This document shows, in pieces, positions 7,982-63,259 of a stretch of DNA of 64,000 bases. The translations under genes and the position numbers were made by a program. The stretch spans positions 4,627-68,626 of IMG/VR virus record IMGVR_UViG_3300042261_000976. One strand, 5' to 3'. Every line of letters begins with the position of its first letter. Position 1 is the first letter of the stretch. This DNA comes from a virus. The notes beneath the pieces are model-generated. The model saw nothing but the letters and a program-made list of their open reading frames with translations. It did no database searches and was not told the origin of the DNA.

Positions 7982-7984
7982 AAT

Positions 7985-13751: not shown

Positions 13752-13753
13752 AT

Positions 13754-38687: not shown

Positions 38688-39326
38688 ATGGTAAACTCTT
38701 ATTCCCGTATAATTATAATTATGATTAAACTGCACTCCAGTCAATTTACAACTATCTTTATATGCTTGTCTTAACATCTTTACTGGATAATTTCCATTAA
38801 GTACAAAAGATTCTGATTTCCCGTGGCCATCTGAAGACCAGTCACCAATTAAAATAATAAATTTATGATCCTTTATAACGGGTTCATCGTCTACTTCCTC
38901 TTCATCTCCGAACTCGCCTTTATCATGCCATTTAATAATAGATTCATTGAATTTATAAAAACTTTTCAAATGTTTCATTGATTCATCAGTGCTCCAATCT
39001 TCTTCACCGTAAGGATCTTCGGGTGATACTATTTTTTTCCTTTCTTTATAATATACTATCATGTTAGTTGTTTCATCTACAATACTACTTGATGTTCCAA
39101 CTTGCATAACAGCCCCATGTCTAACTGGTTCGGAATTTCCCTCATAAATAAATTCCAATCCGCCATTATAGGAATATCTGGGCCAATATTTTACTCCTAA
39201 TATTCTAACTTCTTTTTTACCAAGATGTGTCCACAAAACATTATTCTCTATAAGTTCATTCAAATAATTTGAAGATTCTTCAAATCCCATAGATGATATT
39301 AAATCTTTGATGATTATTTTATCCAT
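38625..39326 (-). CDS. hypothetical protein with internal DPYGEEDW; candidate tail-assembly-chaperone-like (G) ORF directly upstream of the giant repeat protein
   Basis: position and overlapping -1 ORF mirror the lambda G/GT arrangement. Confidence 0.5.
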   Translation of the reverse strand: MDKIIIKDLISSMGFEESSNYLNELIENNVLWTHLGKKEVRILGVKYWPRYSYNGGLEFIYEGNSEPVRHGAVMQVGTSSSIVDETTNMIVYYKERKKIVSPEDPYGEEDWSTDESMKHLKSFYKFNESIIKWHDKGEFGDEEEVDDEPVIKDHKFIILIGDWSSDGHGKSESFVLNGNYPVKMLRQAYKDSCKLTGVQFNHNYNYTGIRVYHLKKDMKKLKKDKFVLNMTMV

Positions 39327-39339: not shown

Positions 39340-39786
39340 TTACCATATCTCCTCGCCATAAGGATCGTTTTTTAAGTATAAAAGGTCATTTTCACGAGCA
39401 TCATCTATTATATCTTCTATGTTTGATAACACTTCTATGGTTTTTTGGATTATAGATTCTATTTTATCTGGACTAATTTTAGCCATCCTTATAGAATTTC
39501 TAGCAAACTCTTCAATTTTATCAGTAACAGATATAGTCGATGGCCATATAGGATCTGGAATCTTTTTAAAATCTGATTTTTCTATATCTTCTATCCCTGT
39601 TTTTATCGACCCGTCTGAATTTTTATATATTCCACCACCAGCTGCATTAAAGACTGTTCCTTTTTTTATATTTATTTTTCTTCTATTAAAAACATCACTA
39701 ACATCTGTATCTTTTGTGGCTACATAATAAGAGTGATAATCTGACCAATCTTGATCTTCTTTTATGTAATTATAAAAACTTATCAT
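39340..39786 (-). CDS. hypothetical protein ending ..NDPYGEEIW
   Basis: C-terminal motif immediately before stop. Confidence 0.5.
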   Translation of the reverse strand: MISFYNYIKEDQDWSDYHSYYVATKDTDVSDVFNRRKINIKKGTVFNAAGGGIYKNSDGSIKTGIEDIEKSDFKKIPDPIWPSTISVTDKIEEFARNSIRMAKISPDKIESIIQKTIEVLSNIEDIIDDARENDLLYLKNDPYGEEIW

Positions 39787-43411: not shown

Positions 43412-44218
43412 GTGATAACCAAATTTGAACAATATACTTCAGAATCCAGATTAGTTGAATATATCAAAAAGTCTGAGCATGACCAAATGATCAGAGAATC
43501 TTCAGAATTCAACCAATACCAACTTGGCATTGATAATGCTGTTAGTTCTTTTGGTCCTGGTTATGGTTTCGCAACTGACCCAGGTTTATCAATATATTCA
43601 CCAGATTCAAATCCTTACGTTGATATGTACGCACGTACAGCAGGCACAACTAGCAAATTAATGCAAATTATCAAACAAGTTTCCAAAGAGATGATGGATG
43701 ACCATATATTTGCTAGAAAATCAGATAGATTCTTGGAAGATATAGATGAATATAAAAACCTAAAGATATTAAGAATATTCAATAATGAGAACTTAAAATT
43801 AAACATTTATATATCTTTCGATTTTATGGATCAAGAGTTTTTTGGAGTATTTAGGAATTTTAATGCAAATAATACAAAACCAACTTTTGATACCGAATTA
43901 TTAAGTGACCCTAAATTTAATTATATAGACAAAGAGTATTATCTTAAATTAAACCAATATATTTATAAGCTTGTTTATAATTGGTTCATTCCAAAAGCAG
44001 GAATGTATAAAAATTTGAAAGAAGATTGTCCAATAAAAGATGAAATGGGACAATTGAAATATCTTAAAGAAGGTAAAATTGTAGAAGTAATGGGATATAA
44101 TACAGATGAAAACAATGATCCCTTTGTTGTTTTAGAAATAGAAGGAAGAAAATTCAGTATAACAGGAAATAATTATTTCTGGTTTAACTATTGGTTTGAA
44201 CCAGTAACAATAAAATAA
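43412..44218 (+). CDS. hypothetical protein (GTG start) MITKFEQYTSE
   Basis: two TTAATATATA motifs upstream. Confidence 0.5.
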   Translation: MITKFEQYTSESRLVEYIKKSEHDQMIRESSEFNQYQLGIDNAVSSFGPGYGFATDPGLSIYSPDSNPYVDMYARTAGTTSKLMQIIKQVSKEMMDDHIFARKSDRFLEDIDEYKNLKILRIFNNENLKLNIYISFDFMDQEFFGVFRNFNANNTKPTFDTELLSDPKFNYIDKEYYLKLNQYIYKLVYNWFIPKAGMYKNLKEDCPIKDEMGQLKYLKEGKIVEVMGYNTDENNDPFVVLEIEGRKFSITGNNYFWFNYWFEPVTIK

Positions 44219-44225: not shown

Positions 44226-44498
44226 ATGAACAATTTAAGAGCTTTTGAAGAATTTAATAATGTGGATCCATACGGTGAAGAAAAATGGAACGATGTGAAA
44301 GAAGAGACTTTAGATGGAGTTTTTTCTGTTATAAGTCAACATTATGAAGGGTATGCACCAACACTAGTAATTGCGGATTCCAAAGAAGAAGCTTTTCAAA
44401 AATATAACGATTGGGTTGATACTGAGCCACATGGAATCTATACTCCCAGACAATGTGAAGATATCGATCACGTTTTCGAAGCAAAAGCATTAAAATAA
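44226..44498 (+). CDS. small protein MNNLRAFEEFNNVDPYGEEKW..
   Basis: CTS-like leader directly followed by DPYGEE-W. Confidence 0.5.
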   Translation: MNNLRAFEEFNNVDPYGEEKWNDVKEETLDGVFSVISQHYEGYAPTLVIADSKEEAFQKYNDWVDTEPHGIYTPRQCEDIDHVFEAKALK

Positions 44499-44508: not shown

Positions 44509-45051
44509 ATGGTAAGAACTTTTGAAGAATATAGATATATTAATTTCGGAATGTTTGATGGTGCTGGTAGTAAAAAAGATCCCAACGAACCATTTTTTCT
44601 TGCAAAAAAACATAAATATTTTCAAGATCAAAGAGATGAAGCAAGAAGACAAGAAAGAGAAGCAAGAAGACAACGAGATGATATTAACTATATCAATGGT
44701 CTGGAAGCGTCTAGAAACCAACTACCTTTAATAAATAGGTGTATAGATATAATAGAAAAAGATCCAGATTCTATTGTTAGAACTAAATATGAAGAATCAG
44801 ATTATGGTAGTGGAATATATGGAATTCTTTTAAAAAATAAAACAGTAATAGTAACTAGAATAGACGGGAGCGATAGAGTCTCTTACTTGAAAATAAATAA
44901 AGTACTAATGTCAAGCACTAAAGAAAAGAAAATAAATAAAGACGTTGATGTGTATGGTGAAGAAAATTGGGAAGACGATAATATAACACCGTATGAAAAA
45001 TTATCACGTTTAGTTAAAGATTACGTCGAACAAAATGAAATTATATTCTAA
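44509..45051 (+). CDS. hypothetical protein with DVYGEENW variant motif
   Basis: MVRTFEEYRY leader; ATGA-coupled to next gene. Confidence 0.5.
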   Translation: MVRTFEEYRYINFGMFDGAGSKKDPNEPFFLAKKHKYFQDQRDEARRQEREARRQRDDINYINGLEASRNQLPLINRCIDIIEKDPDSIVRTKYEESDYGSGIYGILLKNKTVIVTRIDGSDRVSYLKINKVLMSSTKEKKINKDVDVYGEENWEDDNITPYEKLSRLVKDYVEQNEIIF

Positions 45052-49319: not shown

Positions 49320-49378
49320 TAACTTTAATTATTTTTTATCTTACTTTTTTTATATATAGATAAAAAGTGGATCGAATT

Positions 49379-52312
49379 ATGATTAAATTGTTAGTTATTG
49401 AAGATCACCCAAGTATGATTTCCGGTTTAGAATGTTTATTAAAAGGAGATGTGGAAGTGACATTTTCATCTAATGATATGGATAATGCCTTGAATTTCGA
49501 TCATACTAAATTCGATATAATATTATTAGATTTATTATTACCAGAGACAAACCCTATAAATAATGTTAAGAGATTAAAAGAAATTTATCCAAACCCCATT
49601 GTTATATTTACTTGTGAAGATTCTAATTTATGGAAGAAAAAGATGTTTGATATTGGTGTCATGGGTTATTTAATCAAAACATCTAATAAGGAAAAAATAG
49701 TAACTACTTTACATCAAGTTTTAAAAGAGTTTAAAAGAGATAAAGAATTGCAATATCCAAACTTGAAAATATGTAATCTAGATTTTTTTAATTTTTTAGA
49801 TGATATGTTTTTTGTTTTAGACTTAAAGGGAAACATTATAGAGTATAATACAAGTGTAACAAGAAAACTTAGATATTTAAAAGAAGATTTGATTGGTAAA
49901 AATATACAAAAATTTTTCAATAGTGATGTATCTTCTATTTTTACTGGTGAATATTCTAATAAAAGAATTCCAATTTTAAATTCAGATGGAAATAGTTTAT
50001 TCGTAGAAATACGAAGTTTAAAAATACACGCTAGATGTAGCTTAGAAGATTATTTATTAATAGTAGCGAAAGATATAGAAGCAGAGGAGAAATATAAAAA
50101 TATTTTTGATAATTCTACTCAAGGAATTTTTCAATCTACAATGGATGGGAAGTATATTACAGTAAATCCGGCTTTTGCTCAATTATGTGGATATGAAAGT
50201 CCTGAAGAATTATCTACTAGTGTTAAAAATATTTCAGATCAAATATACGCAAATAAAAGCGATAGAGATCAATTTCTAGATACATTATTAAAATATGGTA
50301 AAGTAAAAAATGCCGAAGGACAAATCAAAAGAAAAGACGGCGATAAAATATGGGTTTCTTGTAGTGCTAAATTAATAAAAAATAAAGACGGAACACCATT
50401 ATACATAGATGGTATAATAGATAATATCACAGATAAAAAAGATACAATAGAAAATTATATTTCTTTATTGAAAGCTATTCCGGATATGATGGTCAGAGTG
50501 AGAAAAGACGGTCTTATTATGGATATAAAACCAGGTGAAGGAACATATTCTGAATTAGGACAATCTACTCATTACATAGGTGGAAATATAGGGAATTTAC
50601 CGTTTGGTGATGTAATAACGACTAAATTTAAAAATATTATAAAAGAGGTTATTGAAAAAGAAGAACCTATTGAATTTTGTTATGCTATTTTTATTAAAGG
50701 AATTGAAAGGAATTATTATTCAAGAACTGTAAAGAATGGTGAAAGTGAAGTTATAGTAATAGTCAGAGAAATAACAGAAGAAATAAATATAAGAAATGAT
50801 TTAACATATTCCAGAGATTATTCTGAAAATATAATCAATACAGCAAATGCCATGATTATAGAATTAGATAATAGTGGCAATATAATCACTTTCAATAAGG
50901 CAGCTGAAGAGGTTACTGGATATAAAAAAGAAGAACTTTTTGGTAAAAATTGGTTCGAAACATTATGTCCCAAAGATAGATTCCCTCATGTGTGGGAAGA
51001 ATTCAATGGATTGATGAAACAAAAAATAGAGGCTAAAGACTTTGAAAATCCAATTCTTACAAAGAGCGGGGAAGAGAGATATATTGTTTGGAAAAACAAT
51101 GAAGTAAAATCTAATAATAAAGTCGTGGGTGTAATATCTTTCGGTCTTGATATAACAGAAATGAAAAAGACATCGGAGGAATTAAAAATAGCCAAGGAAA
51201 AAGCAGAGCAATCAGATAAAATGAAATTAGAATATCTTTCTAACATGAGTCACGATCTTCGTACCCCAATGAATGCTATTATAGGATTTACAGATTTATT
51301 AAGAGCTAATAATCTAACCAAAAACGAAAAACACGATTATATTAATACTATTATAAATAACGGTAAATATTTGATGGCTCTTATAGACGATATTATTGAC
51401 ATTTCTAAAATTGACGCTGGAAGTCTTAAAGTAGAAAATAGAGATTTTGAAATAAATAAACTCATGGAAGAACTTCGTCTTTCATATATAAAACAAATTA
51501 AAGATAAAAATATAGAAATTATAATAGATATAGATGTTAATAAAAATATTATAATACAATCTGATAAATATAGACTAAGACAAATTATGGCAAATCTTAT
51601 AGGAAACGCTATAAAATTTACAAACGATGGTTATGTCAAATTCGGATATAAAATACTGAATAATAGAATGTTAGAAATATATGTTGAAGATACAGGTCCA
51701 GGTATAGAGAAACAAAATCAGAAAATAATTTTTGAAAGATTTAAGCAATTAAATGATACCAATAAATATAAAGGAGCTGGACTTGGTTTGTCTATAAGTA
51801 AATCTTTGGTTGAACTATTAGGATTTAAAGAAATAAAATTAGTATCTGAATTTGGTAATGGTAGTAGATTTTATTTTAATGTGCCTTACGATGTGAAAAA
51901 TTTTACTTATATGTCTGATATTAAAGAAAGAAAACATAAGAAAATAAATTTTGCTGGAAAAAATATTCTTTTAGTAGAAGATAATAGAGATAGTAGAACA
52001 ATTATGAAATCTTATCTACAAGATACAAAAGCCAATGTTATAGAAATGAAAGATGGTATTGGTATATTAGATGTTATAAAAGAAAAAGAAATAGATTTAG
52101 TTTTATTGGATATTGGTCTTCCTGGAGGTAAAAATGGTTATGTAATATTAGAAGAAATAAAAAATTATGATAACAGATTACCAGTTATTATAGAATCAGC
52201 TTTAGCTATGCCGGATCAAAAAAATAAGGCATATGATTTAGGATGTGATGATTTTATATCCAAACCTTTCAATAGGGAAGATTTTCTAAACAAAATAGAT
52301 AACTTACTATAA
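49379..52312 (+). CDS. hybrid sensor histidine kinase: REC - 3x PAS - HisKA - HATPase_c - REC
   Basis: start at ATG 49379 (MIKLLVIEDH); ILLDLLLP Asp pocket; MSHDLRTPMNAI H-box; NLIGNAIKFT / DTGPGI / GAGLGLSISK N,G boxes; C-terminal ILLVEDN..LVLLDIGLPG receiver. Confidence 0.8.
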   Translation: MIKLLVIEDHPSMISGLECLLKGDVEVTFSSNDMDNALNFDHTKFDIILLDLLLPETNPINNVKRLKEIYPNPIVIFTCEDSNLWKKKMFDIGVMGYLIKTSNKEKIVTTLHQVLKEFKRDKELQYPNLKICNLDFFNFLDDMFFVLDLKGNIIEYNTSVTRKLRYLKEDLIGKNIQKFFNSDVSSIFTGEYSNKRIPILNSDGNSLFVEIRSLKIHARCSLEDYLLIVAKDIEAEEKYKNIFDNSTQGIFQSTMDGKYITVNPAFAQLCGYESPEELSTSVKNISDQIYANKSDRDQFLDTLLKYGKVKNAEGQIKRKDGDKIWVSCSAKLIKNKDGTPLYIDGIIDNITDKKDTIENYISLLKAIPDMMVRVRKDGLIMDIKPGEGTYSELGQSTHYIGGNIGNLPFGDVITTKFKNIIKEVIEKEEPIEFCYAIFIKGIERNYYSRTVKNGESEVIVIVREITEEINIRNDLTYSRDYSENIINTANAMIIELDNSGNIITFNKAAEEVTGYKKEELFGKNWFETLCPKDRFPHVWEEFNGLMKQKIEAKDFENPILTKSGEERYIVWKNNEVKSNNKVVGVISFGLDITEMKKTSEELKIAKEKAEQSDKMKLEYLSNMSHDLRTPMNAIIGFTDLLRANNLTKNEKHDYINTIINNGKYLMALIDDIIDISKIDAGSLKVENRDFEINKLMEELRLSYIKQIKDKNIEIIIDIDVNKNIIIQSDKYRLRQIMANLIGNAIKFTNDGYVKFGYKILNNRMLEIYVEDTGPGIEKQNQKIIFERFKQLNDTNKYKGAGLGLSISKSLVELLGFKEIKLVSEFGNGSRFYFNVPYDVKNFTYMSDIKERKHKKINFAGKNILLVEDNRDSRTIMKSYLQDTKANVIEMKDGIGILDVIKEKEIDLVLLDIGLPGGKNGYVILEEIKNYDNRLPVIIESALAMPDQKNKAYDLGCDDFISKPFNREDFLNKIDNLL

Positions 52313-53166: not shown

Positions 53167-53625
53167 ATGAATAACTTAATAAACTTTGAACAATATAACG
53201 AAGGTATAGTATCGTCATTAAATAAGAGATTTAATAAAAATCAAAATGACGAAACCATAGAATCTTATCTAAAAGATATTAAAAGAAATTTTTATGATCA
53301 TAAATTGTTCTATGGTAATCAATGGAACAGCGATAAGTTAATTATAACACCTGGAAACGAACAGATTCTATGGTTTTCTTATATTCTTGATACAAATATG
53401 ATAAACTTTGGAAAGTTACATCAAAAGAAAAAAATCGATATTTCATTCGATAGAAGATTAAATAAGTATATGATATTCTTAGACGGTAGCGATATAACAA
53501 AAGGTACAAATCAATATGTAATTAAAGATGTTTTTGATTTCTTTTGGTCAAGATATTTTCCAAAAGAAAAATTACCAAAAGTATCCAGTAATCCTGCGAT
53601 TGAATGGAATACCCCACCTAGATAA
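53167..53625 (+). CDS. hypothetical protein MNNLINFEQYNEG
   Basis: track ORF. Confidence 0.45.
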   Translation: MNNLINFEQYNEGIVSSLNKRFNKNQNDETIESYLKDIKRNFYDHKLFYGNQWNSDKLIITPGNEQILWFSYILDTNMINFGKLHQKKKIDISFDRRLNKYMIFLDGSDITKGTNQYVIKDVFDFFWSRYFPKEKLPKVSSNPAIEWNTPPR

Positions 53626-54112: not shown

Positions 54113-54356
54113 CTTTCTTTAGTTTTTTATTAATTTTATGTCTAACATAATGTTTTACATATTTGTATATTTCTCTTAGATGTGTGAGATCAACTCCGTA
54201 GTTGGTGAATAAATAACCAATCATGAAATCTACTATATGCTCTTCGTTAGCGTGTTTATGTATAGCATTTAAGTATTTTTTAGCTTCTTCAAAGGCTATA
54301 TCCATTTTAGATTTATTCAAGAGTCTCTCGTTTACAAATTGATCATATTTTTTCAT
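54096..54356 (-). CDS. hypothetical small protein MKKYDQFVNE
   Basis: track ORF. Confidence 0.4.
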   Translation of the reverse strand: MKKYDQFVNERLLNKSKMDIAFEEAKKYLNAIHKHANEEHIVDFMIGYLFTNYGVDLTHLREIYKYVKHYVRHKINKKLKKGDKGL

Positions 54357-54700
54357 AATTTTATAGTTATTTCATTATCTCCTATTATAATTGGGTATCT
54401 AGTATCCAGTGTATAATAATCATCTCTATCATTACCCATAACAATATATCCATCTTCATCTAAATATATATTATTTACAGTTTCACCAATTACTTTTTTA
54501 TATTTATAAGAAACATACATTGAACTTGAAATAAATAAAATGAAATTAAATTTTATGACTTTATTTAAAATCAACTCTTTTAATTTTTCTATTTTTTCAT
54601 CAATTTCCATTTCAGACAAATCATATTCAGTATTCCAATTCTCTTCACCGTATGGATCTATATCTATTGATTCTAATATGTATTCTTTGAATCTTTTCAT
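54353..54700 (-). CDS. hypothetical protein MKRFKEYILESIDIDPYGEENW..
   Basis: leader + motif at N-terminus. Confidence 0.45.
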   Translation of the reverse strand: MKRFKEYILESIDIDPYGEENWNTEYDLSEMEIDEKIEKLKELILNKVIKFNFILFISSSMYVSYKYKKVIGETVNNIYLDEDGYIVMGNDRDDYYTLDTRYPIIIGDNEITIKL

Positions 54701-56846: not shown

Positions 56847-57208
56847 TCATACCATCTAACTCCTTCATTTAATGCTACTCTAAATAAATCAGCAATTAAA
56901 CATTCTAGATGACAATTATATCTTGTTTTTGTTCCTCCTTCTGGTGTATTATAAAAATAATATCTTGCTTGATCTTCAAGTAAATCGAATATTTTTTTAT
57001 AAACTTCTCTGAACGTTTTTGTATATTCATCATTAGTATATTCATTCAATTTTTTGAATTTATATTCATTAAAAACTTTCAGAATAACTTGTTTTTCTTT
57101 TTCTTCATCTTCTGGACGTAGTTCTAAACCAAACTCATTTTTACTTCTTTCAATATTAGAGTTTATTATATCAAGCAAACTATTATATTTTTTATATTCC
57201 TTAATCAT
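56843..57208 (-). CDS. hypothetical protein MIKEYKKYNS
   Basis: track ORF. Confidence 0.4.
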   Translation of the reverse strand: MIKEYKKYNSLLDIINSNIERSKNEFGLELRPEDEEKEKQVILKVFNEYKFKKLNEYTNDEYTKTFREVYKKIFDLLEDQARYYFYNTPEGGTKTRYNCHLECLIADLFRVALNEGVRWYD

Positions 57209-57518
57209 AACTTATTTCAGTCCATTCTTCTTCGCCATATGGATCTATATCCATATGTTCTATATAATCTTTTTCTCTTATTTTCTCCATTTTTTTTAAG
57301 AAATCTGGGTCTGCTGGAATGAATCTACTCAAGAACCATCCTTCATCACCATCTACTGCACACATCGTATCAGTGCCATCGAACCAAACTCCAGTCAATG
57401 TATAGACTTTATCTTTGACCAGAGCTCCATTAGGTTTAACACAAATAACTTTATCCCCGGCACGAAGATTTAGAAGATTTCTATTTTCATTTATATATGT
57501 TAAATAATTTTTAATCAT
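57201..57518 (-). CDS. hypothetical protein MIKNYLTYINENR.. ending MDIDPYGEEEWTEISYD
   Basis: start moved to internal ATG 57518 (CTS-like leader, removes overlap); track start 57554. Confidence 0.4.
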   Translation of the reverse strand: MIKNYLTYINENRNLLNLRAGDKVICVKPNGALVKDKVYTLTGVWFDGTDTMCAVDGDEGWFLSRFIPADPDFLKKMEKIREKDYIEHMDIDPYGEEEWTEISYD

Positions 57519-57900
57519 TATTCCAGTCCTCCTCACCGTATGGATCAGCTTCAAGATTGACTATTGGATTTCTCTCTTGTAATATTACAATTTTATCTTC
57601 TGGTCCTGGTGCTATTTTATATGAATTTATATTATTAGGATCTTCGGCAAAATACAAATACCAAGTATTATTATTTCTTATATCACTTGTTGTCAAAACA
57701 ACATCTATTCTTCTAACATTAATTGTATATACACGTTTATTATCATAATATAAATATATTCTTATTCTTTTCCCCATGTATTTTTCACGAAGAAAAACTA
57801 AAATTAATTTGGCATCTATTTTCTCAAATCCTCCATTTTTTTCTATTATCTCAGCAACTGTTGTTGGATCTATTTCTTCATATTTTTCCTTAAATTTCAT
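57511..57900 (-). CDS. hypothetical protein ending ..EADPYGEEDWNND
   Basis: C-terminal motif. Confidence 0.45.
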   Translation of the reverse strand: MKFKEKYEEIDPTTVAEIIEKNGGFEKIDAKLILVFLREKYMGKRIRIYLYYDNKRVYTINVRRIDVVLTTSDIRNNNTWYLYFAEDPNNINSYKIAPGPEDKIVILQERNPIVNLEADPYGEEDWNND

Positions 57901-57996: not shown

Positions 57997-58962
57997 ATGA
58001 TTAAATTTGATTTACTAATTGATGGAAATTATCTTCTACAAAAATCAGTACATATACTTCACAAAAATAAAATACTAGCTTCTGAATTATACAACGTAAT
58101 AGAAAGAGACTACATTACACTTACAAAATTATATCCCTTCGACAAAATATACTTTATATCTGATAGTTTTAAAAACTGGAGAAAAGAATTTTTCAATGAT
58201 TATAAAGGAACAAGAAAACGCGATGATAAAATAGATTGGGAATTTGTATATAGTGAATTCTCCAAACTAAAAGAATATCTCAAATCGAAAAGGAATTGCA
58301 TTCAATATCAAATTGAAAGTCTTGAAGGCGATGATATAATAGCGTATTTAACTAATACATTGAACAATAAAGGACATTCTGTTTTCATTATGTCTAATGA
58401 TAGTGACTTATTTCAACTAATACACTATGACACAGATAAGAGATATATTAATATGATGTATAACTCTAAAATGACAGATGATAAAATATACATACCACAA
58501 CACTACACTATATTTACGAAATATATTAAAGACACATATGTTGATGATATGTTTGAAGATAACAACGAAATAGAATTCTTAGAATTTCTTAATAATTTTA
58601 CGAGAACAAGAAAAATATCTTATATTGACTCTGAAATGGAACTTTTCCAAAAAATAATGGGACATAATAAAGATAACATAAAGTCTGTTTATATGAGAGG
58701 AGATCGTGGTATTGGAAAGAATGGTATAGATAAGATATATAAAATGTATAAAGATACTTATCCAGAACCAATTGATTTTAATTCTGAAATTTTCAAACAA
58801 AGAATAATAGATCATATAAAACTATATAAAAGATTAAAAGATAGCTCTATGGATGATTCTATGAATGAGAGATTGAAAAGGAATATGAAACTTGTCAAAT
58901 TGGATAAAGATTCTATGCCTGAATATCTTTATAAAAATATGGTAAAGGAGATTAAACTATGA
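57997..58962 (+). CDS. rnh: T4-type RNase H / 5'-3' flap exonuclease (FEN family)
   Basis: LLIDGNYLLQKS; ISDS..WRKEFFNDYKGTRK; GDDIIAYL; SNDSDLFQL collinear with T4 rnh motifs. Confidence 0.75.
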   Translation: MIKFDLLIDGNYLLQKSVHILHKNKILASELYNVIERDYITLTKLYPFDKIYFISDSFKNWRKEFFNDYKGTRKRDDKIDWEFVYSEFSKLKEYLKSKRNCIQYQIESLEGDDIIAYLTNTLNNKGHSVFIMSNDSDLFQLIHYDTDKRYINMMYNSKMTDDKIYIPQHYTIFTKYIKDTYVDDMFEDNNEIEFLEFLNNFTRTRKISYIDSEMELFQKIMGHNKDNIKSVYMRGDRGIGKNGIDKIYKMYKDTYPEPIDFNSEIFKQRIIDHIKLYKRLKDSSMDDSMNERLKRNMKLVKLDKDSMPEYLYKNMVKEIKL

Positions 58963-59378
58963 CTCTTAAAGAATGGATAAAAAAAGTAGTATATGGTATA
59001 GAGCCTGTGGTTGACATACCAAACATCGAACCTATTGTTCAAGGAAATGTTAGAAGATATGTGATTCCAGTTGGCGGAATGACAAGAAAGGAAGCAGAAC
59101 GCCAAATAGTGGAGTTGATGAACACATACAACGATGATGTTAAATGGGACGAAAACAACGGAGAATTAAATATAAATGGAAATACACAAATTCCATTTCA
59201 AAAGGATTATTGGTTTCCTCAAGAAAATTGGTCAAAAACATATAAGAAATTTGTGAAATCTTTTACACCAGAACAGCAAAAGATGATGGAAGAATCTAGA
59301 TTAATTTATAATAGGTGTGGACCACATCACCCAAGAAGAGTATTTACTATACCAATAGGCAAGAAAAAAGAGGACTAA
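58959..59378 (+). CDS. hypothetical protein
   Basis: ATGA-coupled to rnh. Confidence 0.4.
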   Translation: MTLKEWIKKVVYGIEPVVDIPNIEPIVQGNVRRYVIPVGGMTRKEAERQIVELMNTYNDDVKWDENNGELNINGNTQIPFQKDYWFPQENWSKTYKKFVKSFTPEQQKMMEESRLIYNRCGPHHPRRVFTIPIGKKKED

Positions 59379-59392
59379 GTCCTCTTTTTTAT
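59366..59392 (+). terminator. hairpin gaggac-taa-gtcctc + T6
   Basis: right after stop of 58959..59378. Confidence 0.45.
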
Positions 59393-59724
59393 ATCTGTAT
59401 TTTTTTAATACAAGTTCTTTTATCGTCTGTTATTCTCATCAAATACAATCCCTTAGATAGTTTTTTATTAATAATATCTTCTTTATTTATTTGCTCGTCT
59501 ATGACTTTCATTCCCAATATATCATATATTGTATATTGAATTGGTTCGTCAGTCTTTATAAAAAAATCAACACTATCATTGTTTGATTTTATATATACTT
59601 CAACTTTATAACTTTCAGTCGTAACACTTGTCCATTTTTCATTAGAATTTAATGAAAAAGATCTTTGTATTCCACCCAAAAACATTAAGATAGAAAATAC
59701 AAATAATAATAAAATTCTTTTCAT
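59389..59724 (-). CDS. secreted protein with signal peptide and Por/T9SS C-terminal sorting domain
   Basis: start at MKRILLLFVFSILMFLGG (59724); C-term YTIYDILGMKVIDEQ..KLSKGLYLMRITDDKRTCIKKIQI matches T9SS CTD pattern. Confidence 0.55.
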   Translation of the reverse strand: MKRILLLFVFSILMFLGGIQRSFSLNSNEKWTSVTTESYKVEVYIKSNNDSVDFFIKTDEPIQYTIYDILGMKVIDEQINKEDIINKKLSKGLYLMRITDDKRTCIKKIQI

Positions 59725-59760
59725 AAGCAATTTATTTTTTTTTAATCCATATATATAAAA

Positions 59761-59792
59761 AACAAAATCCGTCTTTTCAGACGGATTTTGTA
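59761..59792 (-). terminator. hairpin aaatccgtct-tttc-agacggattt
   Basis: 10-bp stem 3' of gene 59798..60316. Confidence 0.45.
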
Positions 59793-59797
59793 ATTTA

Positions 59798-60316
59798 TTA
59801 ATTATCATACTCTTTTGTTCCTTCAAGTCGGCTTTTGAATTCTTCCAGAACTATTTGCAAGCTAGATGTTATATTGCCTAAAATTTCTTTTTCCATTTTA
59901 TCTCTATCTTCTTTAACTTTATCATCAAACATTCTGCTCATTTTTGATGATGTTTTTTCTGGTAGATCAATATCATATCTATATTGGTGATTTACTATAG
60001 TTAATTTACCGCTTTCGAGAATAAGAAATGTGTTTATTTCGTTATTTATAACATATTGTTTGCTAACGATATATTTCTTATATGACATTCCAACATTCAA
60101 ATATCTTATATTATTTTCGTCATTCAAAGATATTTTGAATATGTCAAAAGCTAATTTTTGAACTGGGTTCAAAACATCGTCTTTATCTATTTTTTTCCAG
60201 ATGTTTTGAAATGTTCTGGATAATAGATTTTTTCTTTTTATAGAGGACGTATCGTCCTCCATTCTTACTGGTTTTTCCATCTTAATTTTGTTTAACAGGA
60301 TAAATTCTAACATCAC
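59798..60316 (-). CDS. hypothetical protein
   Basis: track ORF. Confidence 0.45.
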   Translation of the reverse strand: MMLEFILLNKIKMEKPVRMEDDTSSIKRKNLLSRTFQNIWKKIDKDDVLNPVQKLAFDIFKISLNDENNIRYLNVGMSYKKYIVSKQYVINNEINTFLILESGKLTIVNHQYRYDIDLPEKTSSKMSRMFDDKVKEDRDKMEKEILGNITSSLQIVLEEFKSRLEGTKEYDN

Positions 60317-60509
60317 ATCCCATATCAGGATACTTCAATTTAAGAACCTCATGGGCTGTTCTGTAGGCCAATCTCATAGAGAAATCTTTGATTTCAAAGG
60401 CGTCGACTATTTTATCTCCGCCTTTGTTATCGTCTATGTAAGCCATACATTTATAATTCTTCCTGTAGCGGATAATTTTGTTAAAAATTTCAGATACAAA
60501 ATTTTCCAT
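60282..60509 (-). CDS. hypothetical small protein
   Basis: track ORF overlapping previous. Confidence 0.3.
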   Translation of the reverse strand: MENFVSEIFNKIIRYRKNYKCMAYIDDNKGGDKIVDAFEIKDFSMRLAYRTAHEVLKLKYPDMGCDVRIYPVKQN

Positions 60510-60555: not shown

Positions 60556-61074
60556 TTACTTTTTTGGATTTATCATAACCCAAAGTCTTTTCCCGTCCAT
60601 CTTCGGTAAAGATTCAGCCTTACCATATTCCGATAATGCATCAATGAACTTAAGCAATAAGATATTACCAATATCCGTATAGTTATTCTCTCTTCCAGAG
60701 AAGAAAACTGAAGCCTTTACTTTATCTCCTTCCTGGAGAAAACTAATAGCATGTCTCAACTTAAAGTTGAAGTCGTGATCTCCGGTGTTATAAGTAAATC
60801 TTAATTCTTTAACTTTAACTTTTTTATTATTTTGTTTTTGAAGCTTGTCTTTTTGTTTCCTTTCATATAAAAGTTTACCATAATCAACTATCTTACATAT
60901 AGGAGGTTTTGCATTCGGTGAAATTTCTACTAAATCTAACCCCATTTCATCGGCAACCTTTAATGCCTCTTGGATGCTAACTACTTTAGTTTCAATTCCT
61001 TCACCGACGATTCTTACTTCGTCTACTCCTCTAATCTGTTTGTTGATTCTTTCTGTTGCTTCTTTTTTGTTCAT
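60556..61074 (-). CDS. infC: translation initiation factor IF-3
   Basis: VVSIQEALKVADEMGLDLVEISPNAKPPICKIVDYGKLLYE..VKELRF..GDHDF..KLRHAISFL collinear with bacterial IF-3; no rpmI/rplT downstream. Confidence 0.8.
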   Translation of the reverse strand: MNKKEATERINKQIRGVDEVRIVGEGIETKVVSIQEALKVADEMGLDLVEISPNAKPPICKIVDYGKLLYERKQKDKLQKQNNKKVKVKELRFTYNTGDHDFNFKLRHAISFLQEGDKVKASVFFSGRENNYTDIGNILLLKFIDALSEYGKAESLPKMDGKRLWVMINPKK

Positions 61075-61100: not shown

Positions 61101-61385
61101 TTAATAAAGTCCGTCAACTCTAAAAATTATATCGTCTTCTATATCTTGACGATTAAGACCTTTCCTTGTAGAAACCATTACTCTATAAGGATCGTATTCT
61201 GGATTCTCCCACTCGGGAAGAGGCCATTCTTTTCCATCCATCTCTTTTACTACTATTCTAAATCTCATATCCAAACCAGACATTAACATTATATCTACAA
61301 CTTCTCCTAGAGAATTTGTGATTAAAAAATCAAAACTTGGCGGATCTGTACTAACTGGATATTTGTAAGGATATACATATTTCAT
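61101..61385 (-). CDS. hypothetical protein
   Basis: track ORF. Confidence 0.4.
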   Translation of the reverse strand: MKYVYPYKYPVSTDPPSFDFLITNSLGEVVDIMLMSGLDMRFRIVVKEMDGKEWPLPEWENPEYDPYRVMVSTRKGLNRQDIEDDIIFRVDGLY

Positions 61386-61789
61386 ACTAATTCCGGATTA
61401 TGTTTTAAGAAATTACGTACATAACTTCTAATATTAGCAGCCCCAATATTGTTGAAGGAATGAACCATTATAGTTGGAAATTTTTCATTATTATCCAAAC
61501 AATAATCACACAACCACTTGGCACACTCATACCCTGTTTTTTCTTTATAAGAGAAGTAATCAATAACTCCATCTACAGACCAAAGCATATCATCTCTACC
61601 ATAATGTTCATCAGCTAAATCATGATCGAAAGAAACAAGACTGGGGACTCCTTCATTCTGAATAATCTTGACGAAATTTTCATAATTTCTAACTATGATC
61701 CATTCTAGCTTAGAATATCTTGTGTCTCTCATATAATTGAAGGCATCAAGCGGGACACGTATATCATCAAGAAATAAATTGTAATTCAT
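61382..61789 (-). CDS. hypothetical protein
   Basis: ATGA-coupled. Confidence 0.45.
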   Translation of the reverse strand: MNYNLFLDDIRVPLDAFNYMRDTRYSKLEWIIVRNYENFVKIIQNEGVPSLVSFDHDLADEHYGRDDMLWSVDGVIDYFSYKEKTGYECAKWLCDYCLDNNEKFPTIMVHSFNNIGAANIRSYVRNFLKHNPELV

Positions 61790-62149: not shown

Positions 62150-63259
62150 TTAAAATTCCTTTTTATCAATGCTTTTATAGAAGTTTTCTGAATTATAATA
62201 TTTTTTATATACTTCGATAACCTTGTCTAATGTTATATCGTTAATGTTCTTTTCAATTGACCAACTTTCTGGTTTTATATAAGTTTCCACATTACTATGT
62301 CTATTTATCTCTACTGTATCTATTTTATTCAATATGGAGTTTTTTACTTGATTGAATTTATCTTCTGTTAAAAAAGAAGTATAATCATCTAGAGTTTCGT
62401 CTAATTTGTCCATTAGATTATATACCTTATAATCATCAGTTTCAGTAGATATTATATTAACTCCGGAATAATCACTCAATCTATCTAGAGTACATCTTAT
62501 GTAATAAGACATGCCTGATTTTTTTCTTATATTCTTATATAATGGAGAGTTCAATCCATTTGATAATAGATAATTTATAAAAAACGCTGCCGCCCAGTCG
62601 CTTTCAACTATAGTTGAAAAATATATTATTGAAGACTTATTAAGAAGAGTTTTATATTTCTCTATATATATATTTCCTGTAATGTTGTATTGAACATGGT
62701 AATCGTTCTTAAAATCATTGAATTTTATTTCGTCTTCAAAATCATTATTCTTAGAAACATTTATTATTTTTGAAGGTGTTTTATAGTATTTATTGAAATA
62801 CTCTATACAATCTGATATTTTTATATTTTCCAGATCTTTTTTGTTTCCAATGGAGTTATAGGTATTAAACAATTTTCTATATAGATTCAATAGATGTGAA
62901 GAACTTTGAATATTAAAAATACCAGTGTATTCTTCCAAAAGAGAATCCTTTACTATTTGAAAATCTTTATCTGAAATGTTTATATAAGACAATCTATGTA
63001 AGAATTGTTTTTTGTATTTTGATACATATTTATCAAGTCCATTTAAATAGAATACTATATTTGTTGGAGATGTATAAGCATTCCAAGATAAACCGTTGTT
63101 TTGAAATTCTTCTACGATGTTATCTTCGAAGTTATGACTTATTATGTGTTCTATTAGGTGAGATATTCCATGAGTTCCTTCTACTTCATTTATGGCGGTC
63201 CTATTATATACGACGTAGAATCCTGACAATTCTGTTTGACTCTTTATGTTTAGAATCAT
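62150..63259 (-). CDS. M16 (pitrilysin/insulinase) family peptidase-like protein
   Basis: inverted zinc motif HxxEH (GISHLIEHII) near N-terminus. Confidence 0.55.
   Translation of the reverse strand: MILNIKSQTELSGFYVVYNRTAINEVEGTHGISHLIEHIISHNFEDNIVEEFQNNGLSWNAYTSPTNIVFYLNGLDKYVSKYKKQFLHRLSYINISDKDFQIVKDSLLEEYTGIFNIQSSSHLLNLYRKLFNTYNSIGNKKDLENIKISDCIEYFNKYYKTPSKIINVSKNNDFEDEIKFNDFKNDYHVQYNITGNIYIEKYKTLLNKSSIIYFSTIVESDWAAAFFINYLLSNGLNSPLYKNIRKKSGMSYYIRCTLDRLSDYSGVNIISTETDDYKVYNLMDKLDETLDDYTSFLTEDKFNQVKNSILNKIDTVEINRHSNVETYIKPESWSIEKNINDITLDKVIEVYKKYYNSENFYKSIDKKEF

What the first reader, a model, noticed from the sequence alone, without database searches (positions are those of the whole stretch)
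60556..61074. Stand-alone IF-3 gene
This is a complete infC homolog, but without the universally linked rpmI-rplT genes downstream or thrS upstream. It is flanked instead by ORFans.

Virus-encoded IF-3 is a hallmark of the recently described huge phages. It implies manipulation of host translation initiation, for example by favouring phage mRNAs or non-canonical starts. Several genes here use GTG or TTG starts.
Basis: partly seen in the sequence, partly recalled or inferred. Interest (0 to 1): 0.5.

Follow-up and report, generated by a model that had tools for sequence, protein, structure and literature searches.

The report
Huge-phage translation initiation factor IF-3
The gene is a real, intact copy of bacterial translation initiation factor IF-3 carried by a relative of the largest known bacteriophage (735 kb); IF-3 genes in huge phages are already published, so this is mostly ordinary, apart from a lineage-wide change at a residue that normally inspects the start codon.

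Summary
Observation confirmed. ORF 60556-61074 (-) encodes a 172-aa full-length IF-3: TIGR00168 scores 179 bits against a cutoff of 60, both Pfam domains match, and the AlphaFold model matches solved IF-3 (TM about 0.75).

It is not in a thrS-infC-rpmI-rplT operon. The whole 64-kb window is collinear with the 735-kb 'uncultured phage' LR756501 (Al-Shayeb 2020), which has the orthologue (79% aa) at the same position. The neighbourhood M16 peptidase, cREC_REC, IF-3, 5'-3' exonuclease recurs on metagenomic contigs up to 243 kb.

The phage IF-3s form one clade (197/200 bootstraps), sister to Bacteroidota IF-3 (at most about 60% identity), under purifying selection (dN/dS about 0.08). No other translation gene or tRNA lies in the window.

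Added here:
- The start-codon-contacting Arg/Lys (E. coli R131) is Ser in 65 of 76 clade members, but Lys/Arg in 78 of 80 Bacteroidota species.
- The gene starts with ATG behind an A-rich leader, whereas at least 31 of 80 bacterial infC have no canonical start codon.

A relaxed-proofreading IF-3 is plausible but untested. The GTG/TTG argument does not hold.

The parts
60556..61074 (-). Phage infC: complete IF-3 coding sequence, 172 aa, ATG start, TAA stop
60844..61047 (-). IF-3 N-terminal domain (residues 10-77). It keeps R21 (E. coli R25, invariant tRNA-elbow contact), K61 (R66) and Y70 (Y75).
   Evidence: Pfam IF3_N; residue mapping; roles of R25/R66 from PMC9723500 and of Y75 from PMC5037330
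60820..60843 (-). Lys-rich inter-domain linker (residues 78-85; part of helix 65-82 in the model)
60562..60819 (-). IF-3 C-terminal (30S P-site) domain, residues 86-171. It carries nine of the ten clade-specific substitutions: K87, T94, Y95, G98, S126, E129, L164, W165, V166.
   Evidence: Pfam IF3_C; clade-specific columns
60691..60705 (-). FFSGR (residues 124-128), the counterpart of E. coli 129-RFRGR-133. Ser126 replaces the Arg/Lys that contacts start-codon nucleotides +2/+3/+4.
   Evidence: Sequence read directly (reverse complement = TTC TTC TCT GGA AGA); alignments; role of R131 from PMC11775629 and of Tth Arg123 from PMC5037330
61075..61100 (-). 26-nt A-rich, Shine-Dalgarno-less leader (aaaaaaaaaacaaaaaaaaaaggaaaaa-ATG) between the upstream ORF's stop and the IF-3 ATG
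   Evidence: window-wide leader statistics
61101..61385 (-). 94-aa ORF with no family match. It occupies a variable slot between cREC_REC and IF-3; relatives hold a 65-aa ORF, a NUMOD3 endonuclease or a DHO_dh-like ORF there.
61382..61789 (-). cREC_REC (cyclic-phosphate-processing receiver) protein, the conserved upstream partner of IF-3 in every phage-clade locus examined
   Evidence: Pfam PF20274, E=3e-20; contexts; domain description from PMC7824862
62150..63259 (-). M16-family peptidase-like protein (HxxEH), a conserved member of the neighbourhood
   Evidence: 73% identity to the LR756501 orthologue
60282..60509 (-). 75-aa ORF immediately downstream on the same strand, conserved in LR756501 (68% aa), no family match
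59798..60316 (-). 172-aa ORF, last gene of the same-strand run, 41% aa to the LR756501 counterpart, no family match
59762..59791 (-). 13-bp G+C-containing hairpin followed by a T-run. It is a probable intrinsic terminator closing the run cREC_REC .. IF-3 .. 172-aa ORF.
   Evidence: 4 terminator-like sites found, against 0.9 expected
57997..58962 (+). 5'-3' exonuclease (FEN-like), the conserved far-side marker of the neighbourhood

Best explanation
This is a working, phage-encoded bacterial-type IF-3. An ancestor of a lineage of Bacteroidota-infecting huge phages captured it once from a Bacteroidota host. The lineage includes the 735-kb genome LR756501, and the gene has been inherited vertically at a fixed genomic position ever since.

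It is transcribed within a phage gene run (cREC_REC, small ORF, IF-3, two small ORFs, terminator). It is translated from an ordinary host-style A-rich leader with an AUG start. That places it outside the thrS-infC-rpmI-rplT operon, and it lacks the non-canonical start codon through which cellular IF-3 represses its own synthesis.

During infection the protein most likely binds host 30S subunits in place of, or in addition to, host IF-3. The tRNA-elbow, linker and most 30S-binding residues are kept. The two side chains that touch the start codon in 30S pre-initiation complexes are no longer basic (T94 and S126). So it most likely proofreads the codon-anticodon/initiator-tRNA complex less stringently than host IF-3, which would bias initiation toward phage needs.

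Shown: identity, intactness, fold, phage context, single conserved clade, purifying selection, the residue changes, and the ATG/A-rich leader.
Inferred: 30S binding, escape from autoregulation, relaxed proofreading, and benefit to the phage.
For: - Identity and fold.
- Phage context: the window is collinear with LR756501 for 53 of 84 ORFs, across the record's circular junction. The same M16 / cREC_REC / IF-3 / exonuclease neighbourhood occurs for homologues at 78%, 66%, 64% and 59% identity, on contigs up to 243 kb.
- Single clade: verified-phage and verified-bacterial IF-3s separate in 197 of 200 NJ bootstraps. Other huge or jumbo phage IF-3s (LR756504, LR756500, LR756511, 121Q, Phosso) fall outside in 179 of 200.
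- Bacteroidota origin: the best 80 species-representative genome hits are Bacteroidota at 51-59% identity.
- Selection: dN/dS = 0.084 against L095. In more distant pairs synonymous sites are saturated while the protein stays 79% identical. IF-3 is the 9th most conserved of 53 shared ORFs.
- Residues kept: R21, K61, Y70, D101, F102, K105, R107, R128, K162.
- Codon-contact residues changed: Tth Arg91 to T94, Lys93 to N96, Arg123 (= E. coli R131) to S126. The R131 site is S65/A5/H2/R2/N1/K1 in the 76-member phage clade, against K52/R26/V1/A1 in 80 Bacteroidota species.
- Literature: R131P in E. coli increases initiation at non-AUG codons, on leaderless mRNA and with initiator tRNA lacking the 3 G-C pairs. 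Mycoplasmas and mitochondrial IF-3 also vary this motif (PMC11775629).
- Start codon: all 14 phage-clade loci have ATG. Of the 80 bacterial loci, 31 have no ATG/GTG/TTG in frame upstream of the conserved RIN motif and 12 have only GTG/TTG.
- Host-style initiation: window leaders are 64-73% A at -10 to -20, with SD-like 4-mers in 3 of 59, matching Bacteroidetes initiation (PMC6847099).
- The 735-kb relative encodes three initiator-like tRNA-CAU genes. One has C1xA72 but only one of the three G-C pairs.
Against: - No biochemical or expression data exist for any phage IF-3.
- The host-lineage motif is already FFK/RGR, not RFRGR, and the Arg91-equivalent is already Gly/Thr/Ser in Bacteroidota. The effect of Lys-to-Ser in this background is extrapolated from E. 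coli R131P, a proline substitution that may act structurally.
- The window shows no excess of non-AUG starts: at most about 4 of about 80 genes.
- The K-to-S change is essentially one evolutionary event, so the S65 versus K/R78 contrast is not 65 independent observations.
- 37 of 80 Bacteroidota infC genes also have an ATG available, so an ATG start is not unique to the phage.
- The second phage lineage with Ser at this site (121Q/Sharanji) carries only an elongator-type tRNA-CAU. Four other phage IF-3 lineages keep Lys.
- The window itself has no tRNA.
Confidence: 0.45

Rival explanations
1. Plain dosage supplement. The phage IF-3 is functionally equivalent to host IF-3 and simply keeps IF-3 activity high (subunit anti-association, 30S recycling, initiation speed). 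This would matter during a long, translation-heavy infection in which host transcription or infC expression is shut down. On this view the Ser126 and other substitutions are neutral or merely co-adapted, with no change in specificity.
For: - The protein is full-length and strongly conserved, with most binding residues kept.
- It starts with ATG behind a strong A-rich leader outside the autoregulated operon, so expression is not capped by IF-3 feedback.
- The window shows no genomic signature of unusual start codons.
- Four other phage IF-3 lineages keep Lys at the R131 site, which shows that phages also carry unmodified IF-3.
- Al-Shayeb 2020 and Iyer 2021 propose general support or redirection of translation.
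Against: - Nine clade-specific substitutions are concentrated in the P-site-facing CTD. They are fixed across a clade that has diverged to about 59% identity, and include both codon-contact positions. That is more than expected for a like-for-like copy.
- The R131-site residue is Lys/Arg in 98% of Bacteroidota species.
Confidence: 0.35
2. Dominant-negative or host-shutoff factor. The phage protein occupies the IF-3 site on host 30S subunits but is defective in productive start-codon positioning. It would thereby inhibit host initiation, or free ribosomes for phage mRNAs that bypass the block.
For: Basic side chains are lost at both mRNA-contact positions. Phage takeover of ribosomes by other proteins is documented for jumbo phages (cited in PMC11895373).
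Against: - Phage mRNAs in the window have the same A-rich, SD-less, AUG-initiated architecture as host mRNAs, so there is no obvious way for them to escape a general block.
- The anti-association, tRNA-elbow and linker determinants are all preserved under strong purifying selection, which fits a working factor better than a plug.
Confidence: 0.08
3. The protein has been recruited to a non-initiation role, for example ribosome rescue or RNA-damage response together with the adjacent cREC_REC phosphoesterase-like protein, as Iyer et al. loosely suggested for jumbo-phage IF3.
For: The cREC_REC / IF-3 adjacency is conserved in every phage-clade locus examined. cREC is predicted to process cyclic-phosphate RNA ends and is linked to RNA ligases in other phages (PMC7824862).
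Against: - The adjacency sits within a generally collinear region, and the slot between the two genes is variable. Relatives hold a homing endonuclease or unrelated ORFs there.
- No RNA ligase or kinase lies nearby.
- IF-3 sequence conservation spans all canonical functional surfaces.
Confidence: 0.08
4. Not phage at all, or not functional: a bacterial chromosomal fragment or mis-binned contig, or a decaying passenger gene picked up by chance.
For: Several 'phage' records with IF-3 hits are short fragments or prophage-like records that may carry host DNA. No capsid or terminase gene was recognised inside these 64 kb.
Against: - The whole window is collinear with a curated circular 735-kb phage genome.
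- No species-representative bacterial genome has an IF-3 more than about 59% identical.
- thrS, rpmI and rplT are absent.
- dN/dS is about 0.08 and the reading frame is intact across 76 clade members.
Confidence: 0.02

Closest known systems
IF-3 of the 735-kb huge phage LR756501/LR756503 (Mahaphage clade; Al-Shayeb et al. 2020, Nature 578:425)
   Same: It is the orthologue: 79% aa identity over all 172 residues, the same genomic position in a collinear genome, the same FFSGR motif, and the same ATG start with an A-rich leader. The paper already lists IF3 among huge-phage translation genes.
   Different: It comes from a different genome. There is no megablast-level DNA similarity, neighbouring genes are 26-84% identical, and 31 of 84 window ORFs have no counterpart in LR756501. 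The paper, as far as read, does not discuss the motif change or the start codon.
Chromosomal infC of Bacteroidota (thrS-infC-rpmI-rplT operon)
   Same: Same family and fold at 51-60% identity. It is the probable donor lineage, with the same 'FF-x-GR' framework and the same invariant residues: R21, K67, Y70, D101, K105, R128.
   Different: - The bacterial genes are operon-linked: L35 in 75 of 80 loci, L20 in 71, ThrS in 72.
- They have Lys/Arg at the R131 site in 78 of 80.
- They carry a basic N-terminal extension.
- At least 31 of 80 have no canonical start codon, and several show AGGAG followed 8-9 nt later by AUA/AUC.
- The phage gene has none of these.
IF-3 of 121Q-type (Asteriusvirus) E. 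coli jumbo phages and other huge-phage IF-3s (LR756504, LR756500, LR756511, Sinorhizobium phage Phosso)
   Same: All are stand-alone IF-3 genes in genomes above 300 kb, away from any ribosomal-protein operon. The 121Q type also has Ser at the R131 site (KTSGR) although its host has RFRGR.
   Different: They share only 34-50% identity with the window protein and fall outside its clade, so they are separate acquisitions. Four of the five keep Lys at the R131 site. Their neighbours differ (ClpS, DnaJ-like, Clp ATPase).
Relaxed-fidelity IF-3 variants: E. coli infC R131P, mycoplasma IF-3 (P/F/Y at R131), mitochondrial IF-3 (KKGK motif)
   Same: The same position in the same motif has lost its Arg. 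In those systems the change accompanies tolerance of non-AUG starts, leaderless mRNAs or initiator tRNAs without the 3 G-C pairs (PMC11775629).
   Different: Here the substitution is Ser, in a Bacteroidota-type FF-x-GR background, and no functional data exist. The resemblance is in what the protein might work like, not evidence that it does.
Phage-encoded ribosomal protein bS21 in Bacteroidota-infecting phages (Chen et al. 2022, PMC9723584)
   Same: It is another initiation-related host-derived gene carried by large phages of the same host phylum, and is also proposed to redirect initiation toward phage mRNAs (listing).
   Different: It is a different protein acting on the 30S platform and anti-SD pocket. 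With an E. coli S21 seed, no S21 was found in the window or in LR756501 (low sensitivity).

Membership tests
Bacterial-type translation initiation factor IF-3 (TIGR00168; Pfam IF3_N + IF3_C) | N-terminal IF3_N domain and C-terminal IF3_C domain in one polypeptide of about 170-180 aa | tested here: met
   PF05198 covers residues 10-77 (88.9 bits, cutoff 26.9). PF00707 covers residues 86-171 (99.8 bits, cutoff 34.8). TIGR00168 matches positions 2-169 of 170 at 179 bits against a cutoff of 60.
Bacterial-type translation initiation factor IF-3 (TIGR00168; Pfam IF3_N + IF3_C) | Two alpha/beta domains joined by a long Lys-rich helical linker (IF-3 fold) | tested here: met
   The AlphaFold2 model has pLDDT 89.3 with helix 65-82 as linker. 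Foldseek against the PDB gives 5lmn_X TM 0.75/0.77, 1TIG rmsd 1.1 A and 1TIF rmsd 1.6 A.
Bacterial-type translation initiation factor IF-3 (TIGR00168; Pfam IF3_N + IF3_C) | Conserved tRNA-elbow, linker and 30S-contact residues (E. coli R25, R66, Y75, D106, Y107, K110, R133) | tested here: met
   The window protein has R21, K61, Y70, D101, F102, K105 and R128. All are identical or conservative, and invariant or nearly invariant in the clade.
Bacterial-type translation initiation factor IF-3 (TIGR00168; Pfam IF3_N + IF3_C) | Basic residue at the centre of the 129-RFRGR-133 motif (R131; Tth Arg123) contacting the start codon | tested here: not met
   The window has FFSGR, with Ser126. The clade is S65/A5/H2/R2/N1/K1, against K/R in 78 of 80 Bacteroidota species. 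This is a conserved functional residue and not a family-defining one. Mycoplasma and mitochondrial IF-3 also lack it, so membership stands but canonical proofreading is in doubt.
Bacterial-type translation initiation factor IF-3 (TIGR00168; Pfam IF3_N + IF3_C) | Binds the 30S subunit, prevents 50S joining, and proofreads the start codon and initiator tRNA | not testable with these tools
   This needs biochemistry or genetics. No published experiment on any phage IF-3 was found.
Cellular infC locus (thrS-infC-rpmI-rplT operon with IF-3 autoregulation) | rpmI (L35) and rplT (L20) immediately downstream, thrS upstream | tested here: not met
   There is no hit in the window or in the whole LR756501 genome, and none in the phage-clade loci. 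L35, L20 and ThrS are present in 75, 71 and 72 of 80 Bacteroidota loci respectively.
Cellular infC locus (thrS-infC-rpmI-rplT operon with IF-3 autoregulation) | Non-canonical start codon (AUU/AUA/AUC) that lets IF-3 repress its own translation | tested here: not met
   The window and all 14 phage-clade loci start with ATG. 31 of 80 Bacteroidota loci have no canonical start in frame, and 37 of 80 do have an ATG, so the feature is common but not universal in the donor phylum.
Huge-phage (Mahaphage-clade, Bacteroidota-infecting) auxiliary translation genes | Gene resides in a phage genome related to the published huge phages | tested here: met
   53 of 84 window ORFs are collinear with LR756501 (723.6-735.4 kb, then 0-53 kb). 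The best phage hits are LR7565xx huge-phage records. The clade and host assignment are taken from PMC7162821.
Huge-phage (Mahaphage-clade, Bacteroidota-infecting) auxiliary translation genes | Genome larger than 200 kb with phage structural genes | not testable with these tools
   Only 64 kb are available. No capsid or terminase was recognised inside the window. Size is inferred from collinearity with a 735-kb genome and from relatives on contigs up to 243 kb.
Huge-phage (Mahaphage-clade, Bacteroidota-infecting) auxiliary translation genes | Bacteroidota host | tested here: inconclusive
   The indirect signals are consistent. IF-3's nearest cellular relatives are all Bacteroidota. A neighbouring ORF has a T9SS Por_Secre_tail at 26.1 bits, just under the cutoff of 27, and the same domain gets a 'weak' hit in relatives. 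Leaders are A-rich and SD-less. No CRISPR-spacer or prophage evidence was sought.

The most novel reading that the evidence does not exclude
The IF-3 of this huge-phage lineage is a deliberately 'loosened' initiation factor. By replacing the start-codon-contacting Lys/Arg with Ser (and having Thr and Asn at the Arg91 and Lys93 positions), it would tolerate initiation complexes that host IF-3 rejects. In particular it would tolerate complexes formed with phage-encoded initiator tRNAs that lack the canonical three G-C pairs. The 735-kb relative has such a tRNA (C1xA72, A29-U41/G30-C40/G31.U39), and the same anticodon stem-loop recurs in initiator-like tRNAs on other IMG/VR phage contigs. A variant initiator tRNA could itself be an escape from host anticodon-stem nucleases. 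Factor and tRNA together would then form a private, phage-controlled initiation channel on host ribosomes.
Probability: 0.15. Interest if true: 0.7.

Novelty: new member of a known kind. Interest (0 to 1): 0.3.

Why it matters
As a gene find it adds little. IF-3 in huge phages has been published since 2020, and the orthologue in the 735-kb genome is in GenBank.

What could matter is the pattern behind it. A large, old, well-conserved clade of phage IF-3s (76 sequences at 90% clustering, down to about 59% identity) sits at a fixed locus. It has escaped the cellular operon and the autoregulatory start codon. It has also fixed a non-basic residue at the position where IF-3 touches the start codon.

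That turns the vague idea that 'phages manipulate initiation' into a concrete, cheap experiment: compare the wild-type protein with an S126K back-mutant on Bacteroidota ribosomes, using AUG versus non-AUG codons and 3GC versus non-3GC initiator tRNA. The host phylum also has an unusual, SD-independent initiation mechanism that is under active study.

Tried and rejected
- Bacterial chromosomal locus: rejected.
- Near-identical known phage: megablast of 52-64 kb against 50,697 phage records found nothing. Similarity exists only at protein level.
- Other translation genes in the window: none. There are no tRNAs or tmRNA and no Rfam family. Pfam scans of about 84 ORFs gave no IF-1, ribosomal protein, aaRS or EF (the 'Serglycin' hits there are artefacts of my Gly-Ser linkers). 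E. coli IF-1 and S21 and Bacteroidota L35, L20 and ThrS seeds found nothing in the window or in LR756501 (low sensitivity for divergent proteins).
- GTG/TTG starts as a sign of relaxed initiation: rejected as an artefact of taking the first possible start codon.
- Sigma-70 promoter scan around the gene: no more sites than in shuffles (27 found against 29.8 expected). It is uninformative, and Bacteroidota promoters are not covered by the tool.
- Co-occurrence of Ser-type IF-3 with a non-3GC initiator tRNA in a second lineage: not found. The only tRNA-CAU of the 121Q-like phage Sharanji has G1-C72 and a long variable arm.
- dN/dS against most relatives: synonymous sites are saturated. Only the L095 comparison (dS 1.28) is usable.
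- Literature search for the DPYGEE motif in phages: nothing relevant.
- The tree is neighbour-joining with Kimura distances on 171 columns. No maximum-likelihood program was available, so deep branching order inside Bacteroidota should not be trusted.
Full report

Yes. The ORF listing gives an ORF at exactly 60556..61074 on the minus strand, with an ATG start and 172 aa (sequence).
- It matches Pfam IF3_N (residues 10-77, E=2.4e-25) and IF3_C (86-171, E=8.2e-29).
- It matches the NCBIfam equivalog TIGR00168 infC over positions 2-169 of 170 (179 bits, cutoff 60).
- It matches PHROG phrog_9787 'translation initiation factor' (E=5e-47).
- It matches the solved IF-3 chains of E. coli, Geobacillus and Thermus (E=8e-41 to 9e-31).
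- An AlphaFold2 model built on 35 homologues has mean pLDDT 89.3, with two alpha/beta domains and a helical linker.
- The model superposes on full-length IF-3 in 30S complexes (5lmn_X, TM 0.75/0.77), on the isolated CTD (1TIG, 1.1 A) and on the NTD (1TIF, 1.6 A).

2. What is around it?

The window is 25-36% G+C. About 92% of it is coding under the standard code. It has no tRNA and no Rfam family.

Pfam scans of about 84 ORFs found no other translation gene. The families found were:
- a DUF2721 protein and a helicase;
- Amidase_2;
- AdoMet decarboxylase;
- a TPM-domain protein;
- Hsp70 (783 bits) next to a DnaJ-type zinc-finger protein;
- dUTPase;
- a major-vault-protein-like ORF;
- a phage metallopeptidase;
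- a MazG-nucleotidyltransferase fusion;
- a 981-aa hybrid histidine kinase;
- an FGase-like ORF and a DUF7487 protein.

Around IF-3 itself lie a 5'-3' exonuclease (57997-58962, +), an ORF with a T9SS sorting tail (59389-59826, -), a cREC_REC protein (61382-61789, -) and an M16 peptidase (62150-63259, -). Most ORFs have no family.

IF-3 lies in a same-strand run: cREC_REC, a 94-aa ORF, IF-3, a 75-aa ORF and a 172-aa ORF. The run ends at a 13-bp hairpin plus T-run at 59791-59762. L35, L20 and ThrS are absent.

So 'stand-alone' is right. 'Flanked by ORFans' is true only of the immediate small neighbours.

3. Where does the window come from?

tblastn of the protein against 50,697 phage records gives as best hit the 735,411-bp 'uncultured phage' LR756501/LR756503 (79% identity, full length). 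Next come other LR7565xx huge phages at 39-50% and 121Q-type E. coli jumbo phages at 34%. There is no megablast-level DNA similarity.

At protein level, 53 of 84 window ORFs hit LR756501 in the same order and orientation. Window 248-14062 corresponds to 723.6-735.4 kb, and window 14059-63259 to 0-53 kb, which runs across the junction of the circular genome. IF-3 occupies the same slot.

Al-Shayeb et al. 2020 describe this 735-kb genome as the largest phage genome. [quoted passage not shown] Iyer et al. 2021 also note IF3 in some jumbo phages (PMC7824862).

4. How far does this IF-3 lineage extend, and where did it come from?

A search of about 5.8 billion proteins found a continuum of unnamed metagenomic homologues from 88% down to about 57% identity. 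Named Bacteroidota IF-3s begin at about 57%.

Genomic contexts were read for six of them:
- P0024 (78%, 243-kb contig), P0050 (66%, 163 kb), P0059 (64%, 87 kb) and P0070 (59%) all sit in the phage-type neighbourhood: M16 peptidase, cREC_REC, a variable small slot, IF-3, then the exonuclease.
- P0074 (56%) and P0110 (60%) sit in infC-rpmI-rplT and thrS-infC-rplT operons.

In a neighbour-joining tree of 128 sequences, all phage-context sequences fall in one clade of 76 members. That clade is sister to the Bacteroidota sequences. The verified-phage and verified-bacterial sets separate in 197 of 200 bootstraps. The IF-3s of LR756504, LR756500, LR756511, 121Q and Phosso lie outside in 179 of 200, so they are independent acquisitions.

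A scan of one genome per species (185,579 species) returned only Bacteroidota-type loci at 51-59% identity. 75, 71 and 72 of the 80 kept loci carry L35, L20 and ThrS next to infC. Eight IMG/VR contigs carry clade members, and none has these neighbours.

Selection is purifying. dN/dS is 0.084 against the closest relative for which DNA was available (L095). In more distant pairs synonymous sites are saturated while the protein stays 79% identical. IF-3 ranks 9th of 53 shared ORFs by identity.

5. What is different about the protein?

Residues kept:
- tRNA-elbow contacts: R21 (E. coli R25, invariant) and K61 (R66).
- Linker: Y70 (Y75).
- CTD: D101, F102, K105, R107, R128 and K162 (roles from PMC9723500 and PMC5037330).

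Ten positions distinguish the phage clade from its Bacteroidota sisters, and nine of them are in the CTD.

The most telling concerns the motif that is 129-RFRGR-133 in E. coli. Bacteroidota have FF(K/R)GR, with K52/R26/V1/A1 among 80 species. The window has FFSGR. In the phage clade the site is S65/A5/H2/R2/N1/K1.

In Thermus 30S pre-initiation complexes:
- Arg123 (= E. coli R131) touches U+2 and the +4 base.
- Arg91 hydrogen-bonds to A+1.
- Lys93 is nearby.
- Arg159 lies by the anticodon stem-loop.

The residue-by-residue alignment maps these to S126, T94, N96 and K162 (the PDB chain index is the paper's numbering minus 1).

According to PMC11775629, R131P in E. coli raises initiation from non-AUG codons, on leaderless mRNAs and with initiator tRNAs lacking the three G-C pairs. 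Mycoplasmas carry P/F/Y at that position, and mitochondrial IF-3 has KKGK.

The 121Q-type phage IF-3 independently has Ser there (KTSGR), while four other phage lineages keep Lys.

6. How is it expressed?

All 14 phage-clade loci examined start with ATG, 8-10 codons before the conserved RIN motif. They have an A-rich leader with no Shine-Dalgarno; the window's is aaaaaaaaaacaaaaaaaaaaggaaaaa-ATG.

Window-wide, leaders are 64-73% A at -10 to -20 (background 34%). SD-like 4-mers occur in 3 of 59 leaders, against 8% of random 18-mers. This is the initiation style described for Bacteroidetes (PMC6847099).

Among the 80 bacterial loci, 31 have no ATG/GTG/TTG in frame upstream of RIN and 12 have only GTG/TTG. 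Several show AGGAG/GGAGG followed 8-9 nt later by in-frame AUA or AUC. This is the classical non-canonical infC start through which IF-3 represses its own translation (established knowledge for E. coli AUU).

The phage gene therefore lacks both the operon and this feedback signal. The caveat is that 37 of 80 bacterial loci also have an ATG available.

7. Mechanism.

Shown:
- an intact, conserved phage gene for a canonical-fold IF-3;
- vertical inheritance at a fixed locus;
- purifying selection;
- host-style translation signals;
- loss of basic side chains at the codon-contact positions.

Inferred:
- it binds host 30S subunits;
- it is made free of IF-3 autoregulation;
- it proofreads less stringently.

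I rate the full chain at 0.45, the 'plain supplement' alternative at 0.35, and the remaining alternatives at 0.08, 0.08 and 0.02.

Evidence against relaxed proofreading being used for start codons: at most about 4 of about 80 window genes plausibly start with GTG/TTG.

8. A lead from the relative.

LR756501 carries 59 tRNAs in three arrays, including two CUA suppressors. Three of its four tRNA-CAU genes are initiator-like, with a 1:72 mismatch and A11:U24.

One of them (C1xA72) has an anticodon stem A29-U41 / G30-C40 / G31.U39 instead of three G-C pairs. That is the very feature IF-3 checks.

The same 17-nt anticodon stem-loop occurs in 26 IMG/VR stretches. 14 of these are called as tRNA-CAU, and 9 of the 14 have a 1:72 mismatch. 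So it is a recurrent phage tRNA type.

However, the 121Q-like phage Sharanji (Ser-type IF-3) has only an elongator-like tRNA-CAU, and the window itself has no tRNA. The link is therefore a hypothesis only, which I put at a probability of about 0.15.

9. Comparison with what is known, and verdict.

The protein is a member of the IF-3 family: domains, fold and most functional residues were tested and met. It is not a cellular infC locus: both operon linkage and the non-canonical start were tested and not met. It belongs to the already published class of huge-phage IF-3 genes, and its orthologue is in the 735-kb genome of Al-Shayeb et al.

No experimental work on any phage IF-3 was found. A 2025 paper on a 121Q-like phage says its function 'cannot be definitively stated'.

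Novelty: new member of a known kind. Interest: 0.3. The clade-wide Ser at the R131 site and the ATG start are, as far as I could see, not described. They make the 'translation hijack' idea directly testable.

Noticed in passing
window 11029-12918(+) twice, 17042-19330(-), 19338-19694(-), 23308-24999(-), 25491-26045(+), 38625-39326(-), 39340-39786(-), 44226-44498(+), 44509-45051(+), 54353-54700(-), 57201-57554(-), 57511-57900(-): A short peptide motif, D-P-Y-G-E-E-x-W followed by acidic residues, occurs 13 times in 12 otherwise unrelated ORFs; about 0.01 PYGEE is expected from composition. The 735-kb relative has 101 copies in ORFs of at least 50 aa. Asp at -1 is invariant in all 101, and 44 of the 101 lie within 20 aa of a C-terminus. 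This looks like a lineage-wide targeting or docking tag, and no phage literature was found for it. IF-3 does not carry it.
   Followed up: partly
window: N-termini of 15 ORFs, e.g. 4777-5358(+), 6582-7007(-), 7016-7630(-), 43412-44218(+), 44226-44498(+), 44509-45051(+), 53167-53625(+), 54353-54700(-): 15 of 84 ORFs have F-[EKSNQ]-[EQK]-[YWF] within 16 residues of the start Met (for example MIKTFEEYDY, MVRTFEEYRY, MNNLRAFEEFNN), against 0 of 310 control windows at internal Met residues. This is a second recurrent terminal signature of unknown meaning. Some of these ORFs also carry DPYGEExW.
   Followed up: partly
window 30785-33202 (-): An 805-aa ORF has MVP_shoulder (E=1.6e-27) and Vault_3 (E=2.4e-12) domains, so it is a homologue of eukaryotic major vault protein. 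It is 83% identical to the LR756501 orthologue and is the second most conserved gene in the window.
   Followed up: no
window 21466-23277 (+) and 23308-24999 (-): A phage-encoded Hsp70/DnaK (783 bits, 84% to LR756501) lies next to a 563-aa protein with several DnaJ-type CxxCxGxG zinc fingers. That protein also carries the DPYGEExW motif.
   Followed up: no
window 49367-52312 (+): A 981-aa hybrid sensor histidine kinase (receiver, PAS x3, HisKA, HATPase, receiver) is encoded by the phage and conserved in relatives.
   Followed up: no
window 61382-61789 (-) with 60556-61074 (-); loci L002-L007: A cREC_REC (predicted cyclic-phosphate-processing receiver) gene lies just upstream of IF-3 in every phage-clade locus examined, down to 59% IF-3 identity. 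The slot between the two genes is variable and holds a small ORF, a NUMOD3 homing endonuclease or a DHO_dh-like ORF.
   Followed up: partly
window 59389-59826 (-): This ORF has a signal-peptide-like segment (MKRILLLFVFSIL...) and a C-terminal T9SS sorting domain (Por_Secre_tail, 26.1 bits against a cutoff of 27). The same feature is called 'weak' in relatives. A Bacteroidota-specific secretion signal on a phage protein supports the host assignment.
   Followed up: partly
LR756501 (L106 21389-23813; L116 40585-40738): The 735-kb relative has 59 tRNAs, two tRNA-CUA (amber suppressor type) and three initiator-like tRNA-CAU genes. One of the three lacks the canonical three G-C pairs, and another is 91 nt with a long extra arm. 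The non-3GC anticodon stem-loop recurs on 26 IMG/VR stretches.
   Followed up: partly
loci L008, L009, L017-L019, L024, L032, L039, L055, L072 and others (bacterial infC): Many Bacteroidota infC genes have no canonical start codon. They show a strong AGGAG/GGAGG 8-9 nt upstream of an in-frame AUA/AUC/AUU, even though Bacteroidia ribosomes normally ignore SD sequences. This is reminiscent of the SD-dependent autoregulation described for rpsU in Flavobacteria.
   Followed up: partly
L013 (phage 121Q) 3959-4462; L144 (Sharanji) 36088-36591: The independently acquired IF-3 of 121Q-type E. coli jumbo phages has KTSGR where the host has RFRGR. It has therefore also lost the R131-equivalent Arg to Ser, a possible convergence. 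In 121Q/Sharanji and in Phosso the gene sits next to a ClpS adaptor or a Clp ATPase.
   Followed up: partly
window 11029-12918 (+), 14059-15219 (-), 15274-16455 (-): Three paralogous ORFs share a C-terminal region (...GTLNNSCMR...DRIY...). All three hit the same region at the start of LR756501 (about 45-2362), indicating a locally expanded gene family of unknown function.
   Followed up: no
window 58959-59378 (+): This 139-aa ORF has a partial match to a portal-protein PHROG (phrog_213, E=2e-9, profile positions 272-329 of 528). Its best LR756501 match lies at a non-syntenic place (72.8 kb). It may be a gene fragment or a domain reuse.
   Followed up: no
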